Assembly: GCA_934149515.1 (NCBI GenBank)
Contig: CAKPFD010000005.1
Location: forward strand, 696-64,695
Length of the DNA stretch: 64,000 bases
Direction of reading: 5' to 3'
From: an uncultured Bacilli bacterium
GTDB taxonomy: Bacteria; Bacillota_I; Bacilli_A; RF39; UBA660
Shown here: positions 13,056 to 48,432 of the stretch, piece by piece
Layout of the letters: every line of letters begins with the position of its first letter
Numbering within the stretch: the first letter of the stretch is position 1
Notes under the pieces: model-generated
What the model was told of the DNA's origin: nothing
The model's database searches: none
The model's input: only the letters and a program-made list of their open reading frames with translations
Position numbers and translations under genes: made by a program

Positions 13056-14951
13056 ATGAAAGAAACAAAGAAGGGGAATGGCTTTACCTTAATTGAATTA
13101 TTAGCAACCATTATTATTCTTGGAATTTTATCAACTGCTGTTTTTGTAGGCGTCAATTATTTGTTGAAAAACTCCCAAGCAAGATACTATGAAACATTAG
13201 AAGATATGATTATCCTAGCAGCAAAAGATTATTATTCTGATTATCATAGTCAGCTACCAACAGAAACAGGAGCAATGAGTGAAGTATCTGTTGAACAATT
13301 AGTAAAACTAAAATATCTAGATCCTGTTTATGATCACAAGAAAAAACTATGTGATGTAGAAAACAGCTTAGTAAAAGTCGTTAAAGAAAAAAATAATCAC
13401 TATGCTTATTATGTCGCCTTAATTTGTGACAATCATAAAAGTGATGAGATTACTATCAAAGATAATACAATACCAGATATTATCTTTAGCGATACCAAAG
13501 AAGGAGAAGTAGGATACAAAACCTATGAAGAAGATACAACTTTGGTAAAAGAGCAAAAAGGAACTACCAAAATAATAGTGACAATGCACTTAAAAGATAA
13601 TGATATGCTAGATAGTTATTACTATGTAGTACGTAATGATCAAAATAACATTATAAAAAGTGTTAAAGGTGTAATAGAAAACAAGCAAGAAGAAACTTTA
13701 ACTTATACAATTGAAGAAGATGGTAGTTATCAAATTGAAATACAAGTAAAAGATAAAGAAGGAAATAGAAAAGTACAAGTTAGTCCTACTTATATCTTAG
13801 ATAATAAAGCACCAGATTGTAGCATAACAGTAGAAAATAGAAGTAATTTATCAACAAACATTGATTTTACTTTTGATAAAGGAAAGCAAAATACTAAATC
13901 AACCACTTGGCAAGTAAAAAACTGGTTAACCCAAGAACCAGCAGCCTACGTGGCAAGTAAATTAAATAACCTAAAAGCTTCTATAACGGCTTTTGGAAGT
14001 AATAAAGGATACTTTAAGAGCGTTGATACCTATGGGAATTACTGTGAAATTACCACGAAAACATATAAAAGAGTACCAACAGCACCAACGATTAGTGAAT
14101 CAAGTAATGGTAGGTGGATAGATGATGATATCAAAGTAACAGGTAAAACCACTGTAAGTGTTGGCGTTGATCACTGGGAAGTAAAATCAGGAAATGGTTC
14201 ATGGAAAAGTTTGACTGGTACTACAACTACTTCTGATACAATTATTGCACCAGATAGTGGTGTTATCAAAACAGATTATTCTTATCGCTACTGTTTAACC
14301 AAAGATAGTACCTATTGTTCTATTGAAAAAACATTCCCAATTAAAATAGACACTGTAAAACCAACTGGCTCACTTATTTATACCTATAATTATGATTATT
14401 TATGCAATGGAACAGTCGTTACAAGCGATCCAGTTATTAAAGCATTTGGAACTTCATTAACAACTTGTCCGAGTGGAGTAGGAACAATTAATGATAACTG
14501 CTTTAAGTTTTCCATTAAATATCCCGAAATAAAATTACATGATGATGGAGCTGGAATTATATCAGTATCAACCAATTTTGCACCAACAATACTAGCAAAC
14601 GCAACAGATCGAACTTTCGGAGATGAAGGATATATAATTGATACTTATAGTCAAGGCGTTAATGATTACTATTATGATGGTAGTAAAAGAAATAAGGAAT
14701 ATACAGCTTATATTCCAGTTTCTAAGAAATTTACAAGTTCAACTTTATTTCAAATAGACTGGTTATTTGATTTACAAATTATAGATGGTGCTGGAAATAG
14801 AGAACAATTTATTATGGCTTCCGGTGCACAATGTGCTGTATCAACAGATTATCAAGTTAAAACTTATTGCAATAAAACCAGTCAATTTAAGCATGGTAAT
14901 ACCATTTACGCTGATTATAAAGCTTATCGAGATAAAGGATGTCCAAATTAA
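13056..14951 (+). CDS. Giant prepilin-type (type IV pilin / pseudopilin-like) protein, 631 aa
   Basis: N-terminus MKETKKGNG|FTLIELLATIIILGILSTAV is a class III signal peptide with Glu at +5. A long Thr/Asn-rich, beta-rich extension follows. Confidence 0.75.
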   Translation: MKETKKGNGFTLIELLATIIILGILSTAVFVGVNYLLKNSQARYYETLEDMIILAAKDYYSDYHSQLPTETGAMSEVSVEQLVKLKYLDPVYDHKKKLCDVENSLVKVVKEKNNHYAYYVALICDNHKSDEITIKDNTIPDIIFSDTKEGEVGYKTYEEDTTLVKEQKGTTKIIVTMHLKDNDMLDSYYYVVRNDQNNIIKSVKGVIENKQEETLTYTIEEDGSYQIEIQVKDKEGNRKVQVSPTYILDNKAPDCSITVENRSNLSTNIDFTFDKGKQNTKSTTWQVKNWLTQEPAAYVASKLNNLKASITAFGSNKGYFKSVDTYGNYCEITTKTYKRVPTAPTISESSNGRWIDDDIKVTGKTTVSVGVDHWEVKSGNGSWKSLTGTTTTSDTIIAPDSGVIKTDYSYRYCLTKDSTYCSIEKTFPIKIDTVKPTGSLIYTYNYDYLCNGTVVTSDPVIKAFGTSLTTCPSGVGTINDNCFKFSIKYPEIKLHDDGAGIISVSTNFAPTILANATDRTFGDEGYIIDTYSQGVNDYYYDGSKRNKEYTAYIPVSKKFTSSTLFQIDWLFDLQIIDGAGNREQFIMASGAQCAVSTDYQVKTYCNKTSQFKHGNTIYADYKAYRDKGCPN

Positions 14952-21824: not shown

Positions 21825-23126
21825 TTATATAATTTGTAAATCATCTAATAGGGGAGGATCGGATAAAACTGGTATAGGAGCTGTTTTTTCTTCATCCTTC
21901 TTTTTATAACCTTCTACTTCTAATTGAATTGCTAAATCATCATCAATATCAATAATTCGATAAATTTCATCAAAAGAAGTAATTCCATCAATAACTTTAT
22001 ATAATCCATCTTGTAACATTGTAATAACATCAGATGTGTATACCATTTTTCTTAAATCATCTTTTTCTAAGTGCTCTTGATTTAAAGCATTACGAATTTC
22101 ATCGTTAATCATCAATACTTCCTGAATAGCAACTCGATCACGATAACCATTATTACAAAATTCACAGCCATCAGGATTTGCTACATAAGTTTGTTCTACA
22201 TTTTTTCCAATTGCTTCCTTAAAAACTTTCTTCTGATAAGGTGTCGTAGCTGCTAACTTTTTACAATGAGGACATAACATTTTCGCAAGTCGTTGAGAAA
22301 TAATACCTGTTAAAGCGCTAGATAATAAATATCTTTCTACATTCATATCAAGTAATCTCTCAATCGTTGCTAAAGAGTTGTTAGTGTGGACAGTAGATAA
22401 TACTAAATGTCCAGTAATAGAAGCACGAACTGCAATTTTAGCTGTTTCACTATCACGAATTTCACCAATTAAAATAATATTAGGATCCTGTCGTAAAATA
22501 GAACGTAAAACAGTAGCAAAATCAAGACCTATCTCACTATTAACTTGTACTTGATTCAATCCTTCAATGTTCATTTCAATCGGATCTTCTACTGTAATAA
22601 TATTTGTTTCCTTTTTATTTAGCACCTGTAAAATAGAATAAACAGTCGTTGATTTACCACTACCAGTAGCACCAGTAACTAAAATAATACCATTTGGTTC
22701 CATGATCATTTTTTGTAATTTTTCAAAATTAGATTCATTAAAACCAAGAGATTCAATTCCTTCCAAACTACGAGAATAATCAAGAATACGAATAACACAT
22801 TTTTCACCCTCATTTGTTGGAAGGGTAGAAACACGGGTTTCTACTTCAACGCCTTTAATTTTACCCTTGATAGAACCATCTTGTGGTAAACGACTTTCTG
22901 TAATATTCATATTAGCTAATAACTTAATACGAGTAATCAAGTTTCTCTCATACATTTTCGGAATTGTTGTATAATCTTTTAAATCACCATCAATTCGTAA
23001 GCGAATTAATAAAAAATCATCTCTTGGATCGAAATGAATATCACTAGCGCCTTGCTTAGCAGCATTAGAAATAATATCATCCGCAACATCAATCACCGGC
23101 ATTTTACTCATATCATAAGTAACCAT
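21825..23126 (-). CDS. Type IV pilus / type II secretion assembly ATPase (PilB/GspE/ComGA family)
   Basis: Walker A VTGATGSGKSTT, Asp and His boxes, and a tetracysteine CPHC...CEFC motif. Confidence 0.85.
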   Translation of the reverse strand: MVTYDMSKMPVIDVADDIISNAAKQGASDIHFDPRDDFLLIRLRIDGDLKDYTTIPKMYERNLITRIKLLANMNITESRLPQDGSIKGKIKGVEVETRVSTLPTNEGEKCVIRILDYSRSLEGIESLGFNESNFEKLQKMIMEPNGIILVTGATGSGKSTTVYSILQVLNKKETNIITVEDPIEMNIEGLNQVQVNSEIGLDFATVLRSILRQDPNIILIGEIRDSETAKIAVRASITGHLVLSTVHTNNSLATIERLLDMNVERYLLSSALTGIISQRLAKMLCPHCKKLAATTPYQKKVFKEAIGKNVEQTYVANPDGCEFCNNGYRDRVAIQEVLMINDEIRNALNQEHLEKDDLRKMVYTSDVITMLQDGLYKVIDGITSFDEIYRIIDIDDDLAIQLEVEGYKKKDEEKTAPIPVLSDPPLLDDLQII

Positions 23127-45745: not shown

Positions 45746-47818
45746 ATGAAGATAGATCAAATCATGAAAAAAATAAAAACAAACAAACAAAAAATATTCA
45801 TGGTAGTAGCAATTATCGCATTATTTGCAGCAGTCGTTGGTGTCAGTTATGCAGCTTTTTCTTATACTAGAACAGGTGAGAAGTTAAATGCTATTACAAC
45901 AGGTGTTATCAGAATGAGTTATGAAGAAAGTAGTAATGTTATCTCTATTGATAAAGCCTTACCAACAACAGATACCACTGGAAAGGTACGTTTAAAAGAA
46001 GGTGAATATTTTGATTTTACGTTATCTACAACCATTCAAGGAACAACCAATGTCAATTGGGAGATTGCAGCACAAGATGTCACAACTGGTAGCAAGAAAA
46101 TTGATGGTAAATATATCAAACTATATCTAACAGAAGTAGATAGTGCAGGAACAGAAACAGAAGTAATGGCGCCAGCAACTTATAGTACTGATGCTAGTGC
46201 AAATGATTATACAGGAAGGCCAGCTAACATGATGAGTTTAGCAATGGGATCAACCTCTACAACTTTTAACAAAAAATACCGTTTAAGAATGTATGTAGAT
46301 GAATCATATAATCCACAAGGGGATGGAGGAAACTTAGTATTTTCCGTTAAAGTAAATGCTTATGGTAAGACAGGAGAGAAAAACACTACTACATCTAGTA
46401 CAGTTACAAAACTCTTATCAGGTTTAGGAACCAATGCTGTTGTTGATACCTCTGATTCAGAACAAACCTTTATTACAGGAATTGATCCTAATAACTATAT
46501 TTGGTATAGTGGAAAGCTATGGAGAGCAGTATCAATTGACCCATCCGATAACAGTGTCAAATTAATAACACAATGGAATATATCAGCAGTACCATACAAT
46601 GCATCAGATAATGCAGCCTTTGAAGGAAGTTATATGCAGCAATGGTTGAATGATACAACGAGAGATGGTTTCTTAGGAAATTTAAGAAATTATCAAGACT
46701 TTATTAAAACTGATAGTGTGTGGAATGCATCAGAACCAACGGTGATTATAAAACCGGCAAAAACAACTATGGTAACAAGTGCCGTAGGATTGTTAAATGC
46801 TTATGAGTATACTATGAGTTATAAAAATACAACAGCTACAAATGGCTATTTAAATAATGACTTATATTGGTGGACATTAACACCCAAACACAACGCTACG
46901 GTTGCCAGCGTCTATTGTGTGGGCAGCAGTGGCAATGCGAGCGGCAGCTGCGATGTTAAGTATTCGGATGGTTGCCGTCCCACGATTAATCTAAAATCTA
47001 ATGTAGAAATCGTATCAGGTTCTGGAACAGCAAGTGATCCATATCGCTTAAAAGGAGATGATGATACACCAGCAGCAGGAACAAAACTAACAACAAGATA
47101 TAGTGGAGAATACATTCGCTTTGGAACCGGAGACAATAATCTCTATCAAATTGTTAGCCATGAAACAGAAGGAACTACTAAAATAGTAAGTGCTACTCCA
47201 TTAAAAGAAAGCGGAAGTTATAAAACAATACAATTTGATAATGGTTCATCATCAACTGCAATAAAAGATTTTTCAAGTAGTATCTATAGAAAAATGAGTA
47301 ATTACGAAAATTATATAGCAGCACCAGACGTAGGAGTACCAGGAGGTACTCCTGATAATCCACTTTATTCAAGTAGTAATACAATAGGAAGTTTCTTGAA
47401 TGGAGAATATCTAACAAGTGGAAATTATCTAACAACTGCTCAAGTAAATATGATCGAAGATAATACAACCTGGTATTTGGGAACAGTAGGAGCTGGTACA
47501 AGCTATAAATTAGCAAAATATGCAAGTGCAACAAGTACTAATTTAACCTCAAATACCACAATAGCAAAAGTTGGACTATTAAGATATGGGGAATTAAATT
47601 CTGGGCAATTTGATAGATTTGGAAATAATACAAATTATTGGACATTAACACCATATACGTCTAGCGTCCATTATGTGAGAAACTATGGCGGTGTGGACGA
47701 CAGTGGTGTTAAGTATTCGAGCGGGTGTCGCCCCACGATTAATCTAAAATCAAACGTTGTGATCACAAGTGGTGATGGTACGAAAAAAAATCCATTTGAA
47801 GTGAAATTAGCAGGATAA
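45746..47818 (+). CDS. Surface/secreted protein A (690 aa): N-terminal signal-anchor, beta-rich module, two lectin-like modules ending ...CRPTINLKSNV..SG.GT...P(Y/F)
   Basis: RBS aaaggga. N-terminus ...IFMVVAIIALFAAVVGVSYAAFSYTRTGE. There are two copies of the pattern YWWTLTP / YWTLTP...(GC-rich patch)...CRPTINL. It is a paralog of 59475-61514. Confidence 0.8.
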   Translation: MKIDQIMKKIKTNKQKIFMVVAIIALFAAVVGVSYAAFSYTRTGEKLNAITTGVIRMSYEESSNVISIDKALPTTDTTGKVRLKEGEYFDFTLSTTIQGTTNVNWEIAAQDVTTGSKKIDGKYIKLYLTEVDSAGTETEVMAPATYSTDASANDYTGRPANMMSLAMGSTSTTFNKKYRLRMYVDESYNPQGDGGNLVFSVKVNAYGKTGEKNTTTSSTVTKLLSGLGTNAVVDTSDSEQTFITGIDPNNYIWYSGKLWRAVSIDPSDNSVKLITQWNISAVPYNASDNAAFEGSYMQQWLNDTTRDGFLGNLRNYQDFIKTDSVWNASEPTVIIKPAKTTMVTSAVGLLNAYEYTMSYKNTTATNGYLNNDLYWWTLTPKHNATVASVYCVGSSGNASGSCDVKYSDGCRPTINLKSNVEIVSGSGTASDPYRLKGDDDTPAAGTKLTTRYSGEYIRFGTGDNNLYQIVSHETEGTTKIVSATPLKESGSYKTIQFDNGSSSTAIKDFSSSIYRKMSNYENYIAAPDVGVPGGTPDNPLYSSSNTIGSFLNGEYLTSGNYLTTAQVNMIEDNTTWYLGTVGAGTSYKLAKYASATSTNLTSNTTIAKVGLLRYGELNSGQFDRFGNNTNYWTLTPYTSSVHYVRNYGGVDDSGVKYSSGCRPTINLKSNVVITSGDGTKKNPFEVKLAG
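46907..46981 (+). repeat. Variable-repeat-like patch VR1 (in frame, module 1 of protein A)
   Basis: agcgtctattgtgtgggcagcagtggcaatgcgagcggcagctgcgatgttaagtattcggatggttgccgtccc. It aligns to 47924-47995 with one extra codon. Over 21 aligned codons, 13 of 20 substitutions fall at template adenines. Local GC is far above the surroundings. Confidence 0.55.
47663..47734 (+). repeat. Variable-repeat-like patch VR2 (module 2 of protein A)
   Basis: agcgtccattatgtgagaaactatggcggtgtggacgacagtggtgttaagtattcgagcgggtgtcgcccc. Over 21 codons, 11 of 20 differences from the template-like repeat are at template adenines. Confidence 0.5.
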
Positions 47819-47820
47819 TG

Positions 47821-47855
47821 TTTTTTCGGTGCAGATGTTCCTGAACCGAAAAAAC
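47821..47855. terminator. Terminator hairpin after protein A gene
   Basis: 10-bp stem ttttttcggt / accgaaaaaa. Confidence 0.65.
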
Positions 47856-47923
47856 ATAAAAATTTAAATTTTAGCTATAATTATAAATGTTAATAGATTA
47901 TAGTAGGGAATGATCAAAAAGAA

Positions 47924-47995
47924 AACGCCCGTTATGTAAACAACAATGGCCATGCGAATAACAACGATGTTACGAATTCGAACGGTGGTCGTTCT
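47924..47995 (+). repeat. Template-repeat-like element (AAC/AAT-rich, non-coding copy of the VR segment)
   Basis: aac gcc cgt tat gta aac aac aat ggc cat gcg aat aac aac gat gtt acg aat tcg aac ggt ggt cgt tct. Adenines make up 23 of the first 63 nt and 9 of the first 21 codons are Asn codons. It is intergenic with no ORF context, in the same orientation as the VRs. Homology starts and stops at the VR boundaries. Confidence 0.6.
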
Positions 47996-48065
47996 ATTTT
48001 CCTTTAAACCTAGCTGTTTACAAAAGATGTAAATAGAATAGCTAAAGGGAGTAGATTTCCTTTTT

Positions 48066-48092
48066 AACGTCAAAATATTTTTGACGTTTTTT
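48066..48092 (+). terminator. Strong intrinsic terminator downstream of the template-like repeat
   Basis: Perfect 10-bp stem aacgtcaaaa / ttttgacgtt, 3-nt loop, T6. Confidence 0.75.
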
Positions 48093-48207
48093 GTTTGATT
48101 ATCCCTACCTAGTCCTTTACATACTAAAACATCAAAAAAAGAACTCATTAAAAGTTCTTTTAGTGTATATTAAGTTCAAACTAAATAGTTCAAACAACAT
48201 TTTCTAG

Positions 48208-48284
48208 TGGTGTCCACGACGTGATTCGAACACGTGACCGATCGCTTAGAAGGCGATTGCTCTATCCAGCTGAGCTACGCGGAC
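48208..48284 (-). tRNA. tRNA-Arg (anticodon TCT), CCA encoded
   Basis: The reverse complement GTCCGCGTAGCTCAGCTGGATAGAGCAATCGCCTTCTAAGCGATCGGTCACGTGTTCGAATCACGTCGTGGACACCA folds as a cloverleaf: 7-bp acceptor stem, GCTC/GAGC D stem, ATCGC/GCGAT anticodon stem with loop CTTCTAA, and ACGTG/CACGT T stem with TTCGAAT. Confidence 0.92.
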
Positions 48285-48432
48285 ATCTGAAACAATATTA
48301 ATATATAACATAAATTAACATTTGACAAGATCTTTTTTTCTAATTTGACAAAAAAGATTGTCAACCACCAATACTTTTGATTGACTATCCACACTTTAAG
48401 CCTTAAAATAAAAAAAGAAAAGGAGTCTTATT

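What the first reader, a model, noticed from the sequence alone, without database searches (positions are those of the whole stretch)
47856..48300. Template-like repeat stands alone: no RT or Avd ORF, closed by a strong terminator, and abutting tRNA-Arg
In canonical DGRs the TR lies next to the RT gene, often preceded by avd. Here the layout is different.
- The TR-like element is followed about 70 nt later by a perfect 10-bp-stem terminator (48066-48092).
- A convergent tRNA-Arg(TCT) follows at 48208-48284.
- The only ORF across the region (47864-48148, minus strand) is an antisense artefact.
- None of the ORFs in the 64-kb window shows RT motifs.
- Upstream there is a consensus -10 TATAAT (47876-47881) but no convincing -35, so the element may be transcribed on its own or by read-through of the 47821-47855 hairpin.

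Two explanations fit. It could be a compact TR RNA cassette served in trans by an RT encoded elsewhere. Alternatively it could be a fossil DGR whose RT was lost by recombination at the tRNA locus. A TR unit uncoupled from its RT would be unusual.
Basis: inference. Interest (0 to 1): 0.7.

Follow-up and report, generated by a model that had tools for sequence, protein, structure and literature searches.

The report
Orphaned DGR template RNA gene
This is the template-RNA gene of a diversity-generating retroelement that has lost its reverse transcriptase, a kind of degenerate locus already described elsewhere, and this copy looks like a decaying remnant rather than a template served from afar.

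Summary
Window 47894-48095 is a real DGR template repeat (TR) unit with a conserved -10 box, a 22-nt leader, an A-rich template, a covarying 3' hairpin and an intrinsic terminator. A convergent tRNA-Arg(TCT) follows. No RT or Avd lies in the window, within 10 kb upstream, within about 22 kb downstream, or at this junction in 22 independent contigs.

The TR matches three variable repeats:
- VR1 and VR2 in the adjacent DUF6273 gene.
- VR3 in a second DUF6273 gene 12.7 kb away.

Related gut Bacilli carry the complete cassette (target-TR-orf112-avd-RT). It is intact in L105 and decayed in L019, so the window locus has lost its RT. tRNA involvement is unsupported: Clostridium sp. CAG:451 and a second locus of the same species show RT-less modules without a tRNA.

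This TR allele has four or five private substitutions that none of its VRs carries. The VRs are static across samples. The one strain difference, in VR3, looks like allele exchange. I therefore favour a recently orphaned, decaying TR (0.6) over an active template served in trans (0.3). The genome's RT, if any, was not found. RT-less DGR loci are already described, for example in Thiohalocapsa. Interest is moderate.

The parts
45746..47818 (+). Target gene A, 690 aa, an N-terminally anchored protein with two DUF6273-type domains, each ending in a variable repeat.
   Evidence: Pfam DUF6273, E 1e-13. In an alignment of 120 homologues, entropy peaks only at aa about 385-410 and 637-661.
46907..46981 (+). 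VR1 of target A. It is TR-related, has a 3-nt insertion, many mismatches at non-A sites, and an altered 3' GC-rich end (GGTTGCCGTCCC).
   Evidence: Alignments. It is identical in all strain variants of A.
47663..47734 (+). VR2 of target A. It is TR-related, diverged, and has the 3' end GGGTGTCGCCCC.
   Evidence: It does not vary among strains.
47818..47857 (+). A 17-bp hairpin directly after the stop codon of target A. A hairpin stands at the same place in every related module.
   Evidence: Inverted repeat I22, 94% complementary. Conserved position in L097, L020, L019 and L123.
47876..47881 (+). The -10 box TATAAT, within conserved GCTATAAT. It is the putative promoter of the TR RNA and has no -35.
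   Evidence: Sequence. Conserved in L020, L019, L097 and L123, 8-12 nt upstream of the leader. The promoter scan found no -35. Transcription is inferred.
47894..47915 (+). Conserved leader TAGATTATAGTAGGGAATGATC. Positions 47905-47915 pair with 48054-48061, enclosing the template and the 3' hairpin.
   Evidence: Identical or near-identical in three species. The helix shows compensatory changes.
47916..47995 (+). Template repeat proper, core 47924-47991. It is AAC/AAT-rich, with 21 A in the 66-nt core 47926-47991.
   Evidence: Alignment to VR1, VR2 and VR3. High-entropy protein columns correspond to the AAY codons.
48001..48048 (+). 3' hairpin of the TR RNA (CCTTTA...TAAAGG), a spacer-like structural element.
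   Evidence: RNAalifold on 7 sequences gives compensatory pairs. 94.8% of cells pair, 0-1 of 500 shuffles reach the observed covariation, and slid controls pair at 50% or less.
48066..48095 (+). Intrinsic terminator that closes the TR unit, with a 10-bp stem and a T run.
   Evidence: The same terminator closes the second RT-less module of the species (L123 9317-9345), where a group II intron sits just downstream.
48208..48284 (-). Convergent tRNA-Arg(TCT), a neighbour and not part of the element.
   Evidence: ARAGORN and Rfam. The CAG:451 module and locus D have no tRNA beside them.
59475..61514 (+). Target gene B, 679 aa, DUF6273, a paralogue of A. Its first domain carries VR3.
   Evidence: Pfam, blastn and alignment.
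60609..60680 (+). VR3, the best match to the TR (offset 12685) with an intact GC-rich 3' end (GGTGGGCGCCCC). It holds the only differences between two strains over 14.5 kb.
   Evidence: 82% identity to the TR. All 14 differences between the window and L009 lie in 60586-60666, and 11 of them lie opposite a TR adenine.

Best explanation
Window 47894-48095 is the template-repeat RNA gene of a diversity-generating retroelement that has lost its enzymes.

**Origin.** The ancestral cassette still exists in related gut Bacilli. Its order is DUF6273 target, hairpin, -10 promoter, leader, TR, 3' hairpin, orf112, avd, RT. In this species the orf112-avd-RT part is gone. What remains is the target plus the complete TR transcription unit, now closed by an intrinsic terminator.

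**How it would work.** The RNA would run about 200 nt, from about 47890 to 48095. An Avd-RT complex encoded elsewhere would copy it into cDNA mutagenised at adenines. That cDNA would replace VR3 in target B, 12.7 kb away, and formerly VR1 and VR2 in target A.

**What the sequence shows for this allele.** This step is not happening now. The allele has accumulated private substitutions that none of its VRs carries. The adjacent VRs have lost the GC-rich 3' end and are frozen. VR alleles are static across samples.

**Shown and inferred.**
- Shown: identity as a TR, absence of RT and Avd nearby, descent from a complete cassette, and the conserved RNA structure.
- Inferred: transcription, present inactivity, and whether any RT remains in the genome.

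The most likely status is a recently orphaned, decaying or dormant TR.
For: **It is a TR.**
- It has AAY-rich codons aligned to three VRs.
- Hypervariable columns across 120 homologues fall only in the two VR windows.

**No RT or Avd nearby.**
- Pfam, regex and tblastn all find none in the window.
- None lies within 10 kb upstream or about 22 kb downstream.
- The 613-615-nt junction is the same in the four places shown that include the end of target A. Only 6 distinct places were shown for the 22 contigs read.

**It descends from a complete cassette.**
- L105 has target-TR-orf112-avd-RT with YMDD intact.
- L019 has the same order with a decayed RT.
- Homology between RT-less and RT-containing versions covers the whole TR unit and stops just after it.

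**The RNA unit is structured.** Covariation supports the 3' hairpin and the helix that closes on the leader.

**Signs of decay or inactivity.**
- The window allele differs from the other two copies in the species, the L097 allele and TR-D. Those two are identical across the leader and the 5' two-thirds of the template. The window differs from both at 47925, 47928, 47938 and 47951, and from L097 also at 47993.
- All VRs have T opposite 47928, G opposite 47938, a variable base opposite 47951 (C in the window TR) and C opposite 47959.
- The VRs of target A are identical in variants that differ at 4-43 other residues. VR2 is also identical between L097 and L109, which differ at 20 substitutions and 2 indels elsewhere.
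- The exact B protein, with VR3w, occurs on 6 contigs.
- The VR3b allele is shared by five different gene backgrounds. The window-versus-L009 difference also includes site 60586, which lies outside TR homology.
- Other RT-less copies are visibly corrupt. TR-D has a VR-like 3' third. The CAG:451-like L101 and L104 carry a +1 insertion.
Against: - The whole genome could not be searched. The species is not among the GTDB representatives, so an RT elsewhere is neither shown nor excluded.
- Between the window and L009, all 14 differences over 14,526 bp lie in VR3. Eleven of the 14 lie opposite a TR adenine (hypergeometric p=0.003), or 12 of 14 against the L097 allele. That is also what recent mutagenic homing would give.
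- Two loci of this species and CAG:451 all keep the entire TR RNA unit, with promoter, leader, hairpin and closing helix intact. The RT-less L102 unit differs by 1 nt in 215 from the RT-linked L105 unit of another species. This could reflect selection for use in trans.
- Within the divergent haplotype block, the TR unit (4%) is more conserved than the adjacent gene (8-14%).
- I infer rather than show that L009's strain carries the window-type TR allele.
Confidence: 0.6

Rival explanations
1. This is an active satellite TR. The unit is a maintained, independently transcribed template RNA. An Avd-RT complex encoded elsewhere in the genome uses it in trans to diversify VR3, and possibly other remote DUF6273 targets. 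The RT could belong to another copy of this cassette type. It could also belong to the second DGR lineage of these bacteria (target-TR-orf120-avd-RT, as in L061).
For: - VR3 is the only place that differs between two strains over 14.5 kb, and the differences lie mostly opposite TR adenines.
- VR3 keeps the GC-rich 3' end.
- The full RNA unit is conserved in RT-less loci of two species and at two loci of this species.
- The CAG:451 stand-alone TR (L020) matches its VR with 13 of 14 mismatches at A.
- L102's RT-less unit is almost identical to the RT-linked unit of L105.
- One related MAG carries both DGR lineages, L019 and L098.
- avd, TR and brt are known to work in trans from a plasmid (Wu et al., PMC5758913). 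Trans diversification of RT-less loci has been proposed in Thiohalocapsa (PMC10907252).
Against: - No RT was found for this species.
- None of VR1, VR2, VR3w or VR3b carries the allele's private substitutions.
- VR alleles are static across samples and shared between gene backgrounds.
- The 3' RNA element of the other DGR lineage has a different structure and sequence, and its RT is only about 43-50% identical. Cross-use therefore has no support.
- Sister RT-less TRs are corrupted.
Confidence: 0.3
2. This is the 3' stub of a deleted paralogous target gene. On that reading it is a leftover VR, not a template.
For: The genome holds many mosaic paralogues of the target. The element also lies directly after a target gene.
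Against: - It holds A exactly where the VRs vary, with 9 AAY codons.
- A conserved non-coding leader precedes it and a covarying RNA hairpin follows it, rather than the coding sequence that follows VRs (...RPxINLKS...).
- In L105 and L019 the same unit is followed by orf112-avd-RT.
Confidence: 0.03
3. This is an assembly artefact. An RT-avd segment has been collapsed or dropped next to the TR.
For: DGR loci often break assemblies. Many RT homologues sit on short contigs.
Against: Independent contigs from several cohorts and two haplotypes show the same 613-615-nt junction from target A to the next gene.
Confidence: 0.01

Closest known systems
Degenerate, RT-less DGR loci of Thiohalocapsa sp. 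PB-PSB1 (Dore et al. 2024, PMC10907252)
   Same: These are chromosomal loci that keep the target, and in some cases the TR, but lack RT or accessory genes. They coexist with paralogous loci of the same class. Trans diversification has been considered for them.
   Different: - In Thiohalocapsa the complete locus of each class is known in the same genome, and the RT was replaced by MITE arrays or transposons.
- Here no complete locus was found for the species.
- Here the deletion leaves a tidy TR transcription unit with its own terminator.
- That unit exists at two loci.
Bordetella phage BPP-1 DGR RNA (3' end of avd, TR and spacer; from my own knowledge of Handa et al. 2018, not read here)
   Same: The template is flanked by an upstream segment and a downstream structured spacer. 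These pair and are needed by the Avd-RT complex. The leader/closing helix and 3' hairpin here have the same layout.
   Different: There is no sequence similarity. Here the RNA has its own -10 promoter and terminator, and it is not followed by the RT gene. Priming and use by an RT are untested.
Trichodesmium erythraeum TR ncRNA (Pfreundt et al. 2014, PMC4143802)
   Same: The TR is made as a discrete, abundant ncRNA of 265 nt from its own start site, and it serves many remote targets.
   Different: That TR lies next to its RT gene. Here no RT lies within about 100 kb.
Treponema denticola isolates with leftover DGR targets (Nimkulrat et al. 2016, PMC4891356)
   Same: The core DGR machinery has been lost repeatedly within a species, leaving VR-bearing targets behind.
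   Different: There the RT and TR are lost together. Here the TR is retained.
DUF6273 DGR targets of gut phages and prophages (PMC10743442, PMC11792537)
   Same: The same target domain carries the VR.
   Different: Those are phage receptor-binding proteins within complete cassettes. Here the targets are chromosomal, N-terminally anchored, multi-copy proteins in a genome inferred to be small (related contigs are 1.3-1.5 Mb).

Membership tests
Diversity-generating retroelement (DGR) | A TR/VR repeat pair whose mismatches fall at adenines of the TR. | tested here: inconclusive
   - Window TR against VR3w gives 12 mismatches, 8 at A. Against VR3b it gives 10, 5 at A.
- VR1 and VR2 are worse.
- The sister allele TR97 against VR3w gives 8 at A, 1 non-A, and the 3' boundary.
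- The bias is real, but it falls below usual DGR cut-offs for this allele.
Diversity-generating retroelement (DGR) | A DGR-clade reverse transcriptase in the cassette, with TR-RT or RT-TR adjacency in all surveyed architectures (PMC5758913). | tested here: not met
   - No RVT_1 or RT motif occurs in the window or in the flanks of the window species.
- An RT is present next to the homologous TR in L105 (intact) and L019 (decayed).
Diversity-generating retroelement (DGR) | Accessory gene avd. | tested here: not met
   tblastn with both lineage Avd proteins finds nothing in the window. Avd-like ORFs follow the TR in L105, L019 and L061.
Diversity-generating retroelement (DGR) | The VR lies at the C-terminal end of a ligand-binding target domain, and variation is confined to the VR. 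| tested here: met
   Both targets have DUF6273. Entropy across 120 homologues is confined to the two VR windows, and there are 70 and 68 distinct alleles among 121 sequences.
Diversity-generating retroelement (DGR) | A GC-rich IMH at the VR 3' end that differs from IMH* in the TR. | tested here: inconclusive
   VR3 and the L097 VRs end GGTGGGCGCCC(C/A) where the TR reads GGTGGTCGT(T/C)CT. The window's VR1 and VR2 are altered. Function is not testable here.
Diversity-generating retroelement (DGR) | Ongoing mutagenic homing, seen as strain- or population-level A-site variation. | tested here: inconclusive
   There is one VR3 difference between near-identical strains. The alleles involved are shared with other gene backgrounds, and every other VR is static.
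Degenerate RT-less DGR locus served by a complete locus of the same class | A complete locus (RT, accessory gene and TR) of the same class elsewhere in the same genome. | not testable with these tools
   The species is absent from the searchable genome collection. Only about 100 kb around the window and a second locus (L122/L123) could be read, and neither has an RT.
Degenerate RT-less DGR locus served by a complete locus of the same class | Target and TR are retained while RT and accessory genes are missing. | tested here: met
   for the window. for locus D.
Rho-independent terminator | A GC-containing stem-loop followed by a U run at the end of a transcription unit. | tested here: met
   Stem 48066-48088 has 10 pairs and a T run. 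The same hairpin at locus D has a group II intron (RF02001, E 1.6e-27) downstream. Termination itself was not measured.

The most novel reading that the evidence does not exclude
These gut Bacilli may run a modular DGR network. In it, compact 'target + TR RNA gene + terminator' satellites lack any enzyme genes. They are duplicated around the chromosome and kept as templates for a single Avd-RT pair encoded elsewhere. One RT would then read several distinct stand-alone TR RNAs, recognised through the conserved leader and hairpin fold.
Probability: 0.25. Interest if true: 0.7.

Novelty: new member of a known kind. Interest (0 to 1): 0.4.

Why it matters
**If the remnant reading is right.** This is a clean natural example of how DGR cassettes decay, with three features:
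- The enzymes go first.
- The template RNA gene persists and drifts.
- The VRs freeze, and recombination shuffles their alleles.

This matters for annotation. RT-anchored DGR finders miss such loci and their targets. TR/VR-only finders would over-call activity.

**What the work adds as a lead.** It defines a covariation-supported fold for the TR RNA of a Firmicutes DGR lineage, made of a leader, a closing helix and a 3' hairpin. This is a testable candidate for the RT-Avd recognition element.

**If the satellite reading is right.** It would show that TR RNAs can be unlinked from their RT and multiplied. That would be relevant to engineering DGRs with several templates.

Tried and rejected
**Searches for the RT that led nowhere**
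- An exact scan of GTDB genomes for a 29-mer of the TR gave 0 hits. The protein-anchored scan showed the species is not represented, with a best match of 63%. The RT therefore could not be sought in its genome.
- I tried to find the species' RT through RT homologues, cluster members and look-ups. These gave RTs of other species only.
- A search with the N-terminal domain alone returned only short proteins and was uninformative.
- Scans of viral contigs for the leader and for the cassette's RT found nothing closer than 37%, so the cassette is not a known phage element.
- Rfam has no family for the TR unit.

**Ideas considered and dropped**
- The tRNA as the deletion or integration site. RT-less modules occur elsewhere without a tRNA.
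- The small hairpin 47980-47994 as a terminator. It is not conserved.
- The other DGR lineage's RT as the obvious trans partner. Its RNA elements are unlike this one.
- Faster-than-background TR divergence as proof of relaxed constraint. The TR lies inside a divergent haplotype block.
- My early reading of the VR3 strain difference as proof of current RT activity. I weakened it after finding the alleles shared among other gene backgrounds.

Full report
**Observation**

The region reads as described.
- Target gene A (45746-47818, 690 aa, Pfam DUF6273) ends in a 17-bp hairpin at 47818-47857.
- Next come a TATAAT box (47876-47881) and an A-rich repeat at about 47916-47995. In the VR frame the repeat reads RYVNNNGHANNNDVTNSNGGR.
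- A terminator follows, with a 10-pair stem at 48066-48088 and a T run. The scan found 2 terminator-like sites against 0.3 expected.
- A convergent tRNA-Arg(TCT) lies at 48208-48284.
- The antisense ORF 47864-48148 is interrupted by indels in another strain of the species, so it is an artefact.

No RT or Avd was found.
- Pfam on all 56 ORFs of at least 100 aa found no RVT_1.
- A DGR-RT motif regex found nothing in the window.
- tblastn with the RT, Avd and small-ORF proteins of both DGR lineages of these bacteria found nothing.

The surrounding genes are core genes: hrcA-grpE-dnaK-pepF-dnaJ, rnc, RNase J and cell-wall genes.

**What the repeat matches**

The TR has three cognate VRs in the window.
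- VR1 (46907-46981) and VR2 (47663-47734) close the two DUF6273-type domains of target A.
VR3 is the best match, at 82% identity with offset 12685.

In an alignment of 120 homologues, variability is confined to the two VR windows. It peaks at columns opposite the AAC/AAT codons. There are 70 and 68 distinct alleles among 121 sequences. This is DGR-type diversification of a DUF6273 target, which is a known DGR target domain (PMC10743442, PMC11792537).

**Where the RT is**

No RT lies anywhere near this locus.
- None within 10 kb upstream of the window (L089).
- None within about 22 kb downstream (L006, L009).
- Twenty-two contigs that carry the neighbouring 184-aa ORF were read and 6 distinct places were shown. 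The four that include the end of target A have the same 613-615-nt gap to the ORF. Misassembly is therefore excluded.

The species is not among the GTDB representative genomes. Its full genome could not be searched, and I did not find its RT.

**Related loci give the history**

The organism is a gut member of the Bacilli with about 31% G+C. Its relatives include Clostridium sp. CAG:451 and Ca. Onthousia. Two DGR lineages occur in this group.

*Lineage 1.* Seen in L053, L058, L061, L065 and L083. The order is target-TR-orf120-avd-RT, and all TR/VR mismatches are at A.

*Lineage 2.* This is the lineage of the window's TR.
- In L105 (a metagenome contig, read on the reverse strand) a DUF6273 target is followed by the same hairpin, GCTATAA(T/G) box and leader TAGATTATAGTAGGGAA. 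Then come the TR, the 3' hairpin, orf112, an Avd-like ORF and an intact RT with GNYTSQ and YMDD.
- L019 has the same order, but its RT is split and reads YMDN, and its TR and VRs have drifted apart.
- Clostridium sp. CAG:451 (L020, L101, L102, L104) has the target and the TR unit but no orf112-avd-RT. Its neighbour is a Rce1-like gene and nusA, not a tRNA.
- Homology between the RT-less L102 and the RT-linked L105 covers the whole TR unit, with 1 difference in about 215 nt. It ends just after the unit.

*A second RT-less module in the window species.* It sits at another locus, behind target D (P0008; L122/L123). One of its contigs comes from a sample that also holds a window-species contig.
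- It has the same hairpin, promoter and leader.
- Its TR has a VR-like 3' third.
- It carries about 110 extra nt that are homologous to the RT-containing versions.
- It ends in the same terminator as the window unit, followed by a group II intron with no IEP gene called (RF02001, E 1.6e-27). No RT or Avd follows.

The window locus therefore descends from a complete cassette that lost orf112-avd-RT. The RT-less 'target-TR-terminator' module is shared by two loci of the species. The tRNA is just a neighbour.

**The RNA unit**

Seven sequences from three species support a common fold.
- The leader (47905-47915) pairs with 48054-48061, enclosing the template.
- A 3' hairpin spans 48001-48048.

The support is as follows.
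- 94.8% of cells pair.
- 7 pairs show compensatory changes.
- 0-1 of 500 shuffles reach the observed covariation.
- Versions slid by 1-3 columns pair at 50% or less.

The layout recalls the avd-TR-spacer RNA of phage BPP-1 (my own knowledge). Only three lineages are independent, so the support is moderate. Rfam has no matching family. The 3' element of lineage 1 differs in sequence and fold.

**Evidence that could point to use in trans**

Between the window and contig L009 from another sample, 14,526 aligned bases differ at only 14 positions. All 14 lie in 60586-60666, and 11 lie opposite a TR adenine (p=0.003). VR3 also keeps the GC-rich 3' end GGTGGGCGCCCC. RT-less loci preserve the complete RNA unit.

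**Evidence against current use**

1. *Private substitutions in the TR.* The species has two alleles at this locus, the window type and the L097 type, plus TR-D.
   - The L097 allele and TR-D are identical across the leader and the 5' two-thirds of the template.
   - The window allele differs from both at 47925, 47928, 47938 and 47951, and from L097 also at 47993.
   - Every VR (VR1, VR2, VR3 in two versions, and both L097 VRs) has T opposite 47928 and G opposite 47938. Opposite 47951, where the window TR has C, the VRs vary.
   - A homing event templated by this allele would have copied its C's. No VR has them.
2. *Static VRs.*
   - The VRs of target A are identical in variants that differ at 4-43 other residues.
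   - VR2 is identical between L097 and L109, which carry 20 substitutions and 2 indels elsewhere.
   - The exact B protein occurs on 6 contigs.
3. *Shared VR alleles.*
   - The VR3b allele is identical at protein level to the VR of four other clusters that are more than 10% diverged from it.
   - VR3w is one residue from the VR of P0005.
   - The window-L009 difference includes 60586, which lies outside TR homology.
   - Exchange of pre-existing alleles explains these facts better than fresh homing does.
4. *Altered 3' ends.* The window's VR1 and VR2 have changed 3' ends (GGTTGCCGTCCC and GGGTGTCGCCCC).
5. *Corrupt sister copies.* TR-D is partly VR-like. The CAG:451-like L101 and L104 carry a +1 insertion in the template.

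One argument I withdrew. The TR unit diverges more between the two haplotypes (4%) than the flanks do (0.3-0.8%). However, it lies within a divergent block that includes target A (8-14%). This says nothing about constraint in either direction.

**Verdict**

- I am confident (about 0.9) that this is the TR RNA gene of a DGR cassette that lost its RT and Avd.
- I put about 0.6 on this allele being an orphaned, decaying or dormant template.
- I put about 0.3 on an RT elsewhere still serving it in trans.
- The paralogue-stub and misassembly readings are effectively refuted.

**Comparison with what is known**

- Surveys place the TR next to the RT in all cassette architectures, while remote targets and trans supply from plasmids are known (PMC5758913).
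- RT-less degenerate loci that keep their TR, sitting beside complete loci of the same class and possibly served in trans, are described in Thiohalocapsa (PMC10907252).
- Loss of core components that leaves targets behind is described in Treponema denticola (PMC4891356).
- A TR made as a discrete ncRNA from its own start site is known in Trichodesmium (PMC4143802).

The window adds a new lineage and a tidy example. It does not add a new kind of system, unless the satellite reading proves true.

Noticed in passing
window 59475-61514 (VR3 at 60609-60680): A second DUF6273 target, B, carries the VR that best matches the TR, 12.7 kb from it. All 14 differences between the window and another strain over 14.5 kb lie here.
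   Followed up: yes
L122/L123 7001-9900 (same species, different chromosomal locus): A second RT-less target-TR module sits behind paralogue D. Its TR has a VR-like 3' third, and its terminator is the same as the window's. A group II intron with no IEP gene called (RF02001, E 1.6e-27) lies just after the terminator. That is where class C group II introns are known to insert (my own knowledge).
   Followed up: partly
L098 3067-6078: In a related MAG, a group II intron with a 439-aa RT-domain ORF (RVT_1) splits the RT gene of the other DGR lineage exactly at the YMDD codons. RT residues 1-260 lie before it and 258-365 after it.
   Followed up: partly
L055 11535-12100: A module of the other DGR lineage has a target and a TR (19 of 21 mismatches at A) but no orf120, avd or RT. 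Its 3' RNA element is truncated. RT-less target-TR modules therefore occur in both lineages.
   Followed up: partly
L020, L101, L102, L104 (Clostridium sp. CAG:451 and close strains): The stand-alone TR is a divergence hotspot between strains, at about 9% against about 0.6% in the flanks. Alleles range from pristine (L102, the same as the RT-linked L105) to frameshifted by +1 nt (L101, L104).
   Followed up: partly
window 45746-46375 and 59475-60100; L006; loci L010-L087: The targets belong to a large family with a shared N-terminal anchor and domain of about 200 aa, joined to different C-terminal modules. One MAG has about ten copies. Paralogues are mosaic, and identical VR alleles occur in different gene backgrounds, which points to frequent recombination.
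   Followed up: partly
window 48134-48162, minus strand: A hairpin (AAGAAC/GTTCTT) followed by a T run on the minus strand lies just after the tRNA-Arg. It is probably that gene's terminator, convergent with the TR terminator. The scan did not call it because it has few G-C pairs.
   Followed up: no
window about 60260-60315 and about 0.7-1.4 kb upstream of position 1: Contigs from several independent assemblies end at these two places. One is inside target B, which is repeated among paralogues. The other is next to a variable island with Bro-N and RhuM genes.
   Followed up: no
window 13056-14951 and 21825-23126: There is a protein with a prepilin-type N-terminal methylation motif and a T2SSE-family ATPase. 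These are probably a type IV pilus or competence apparatus and are unrelated to the finding.
   Followed up: no
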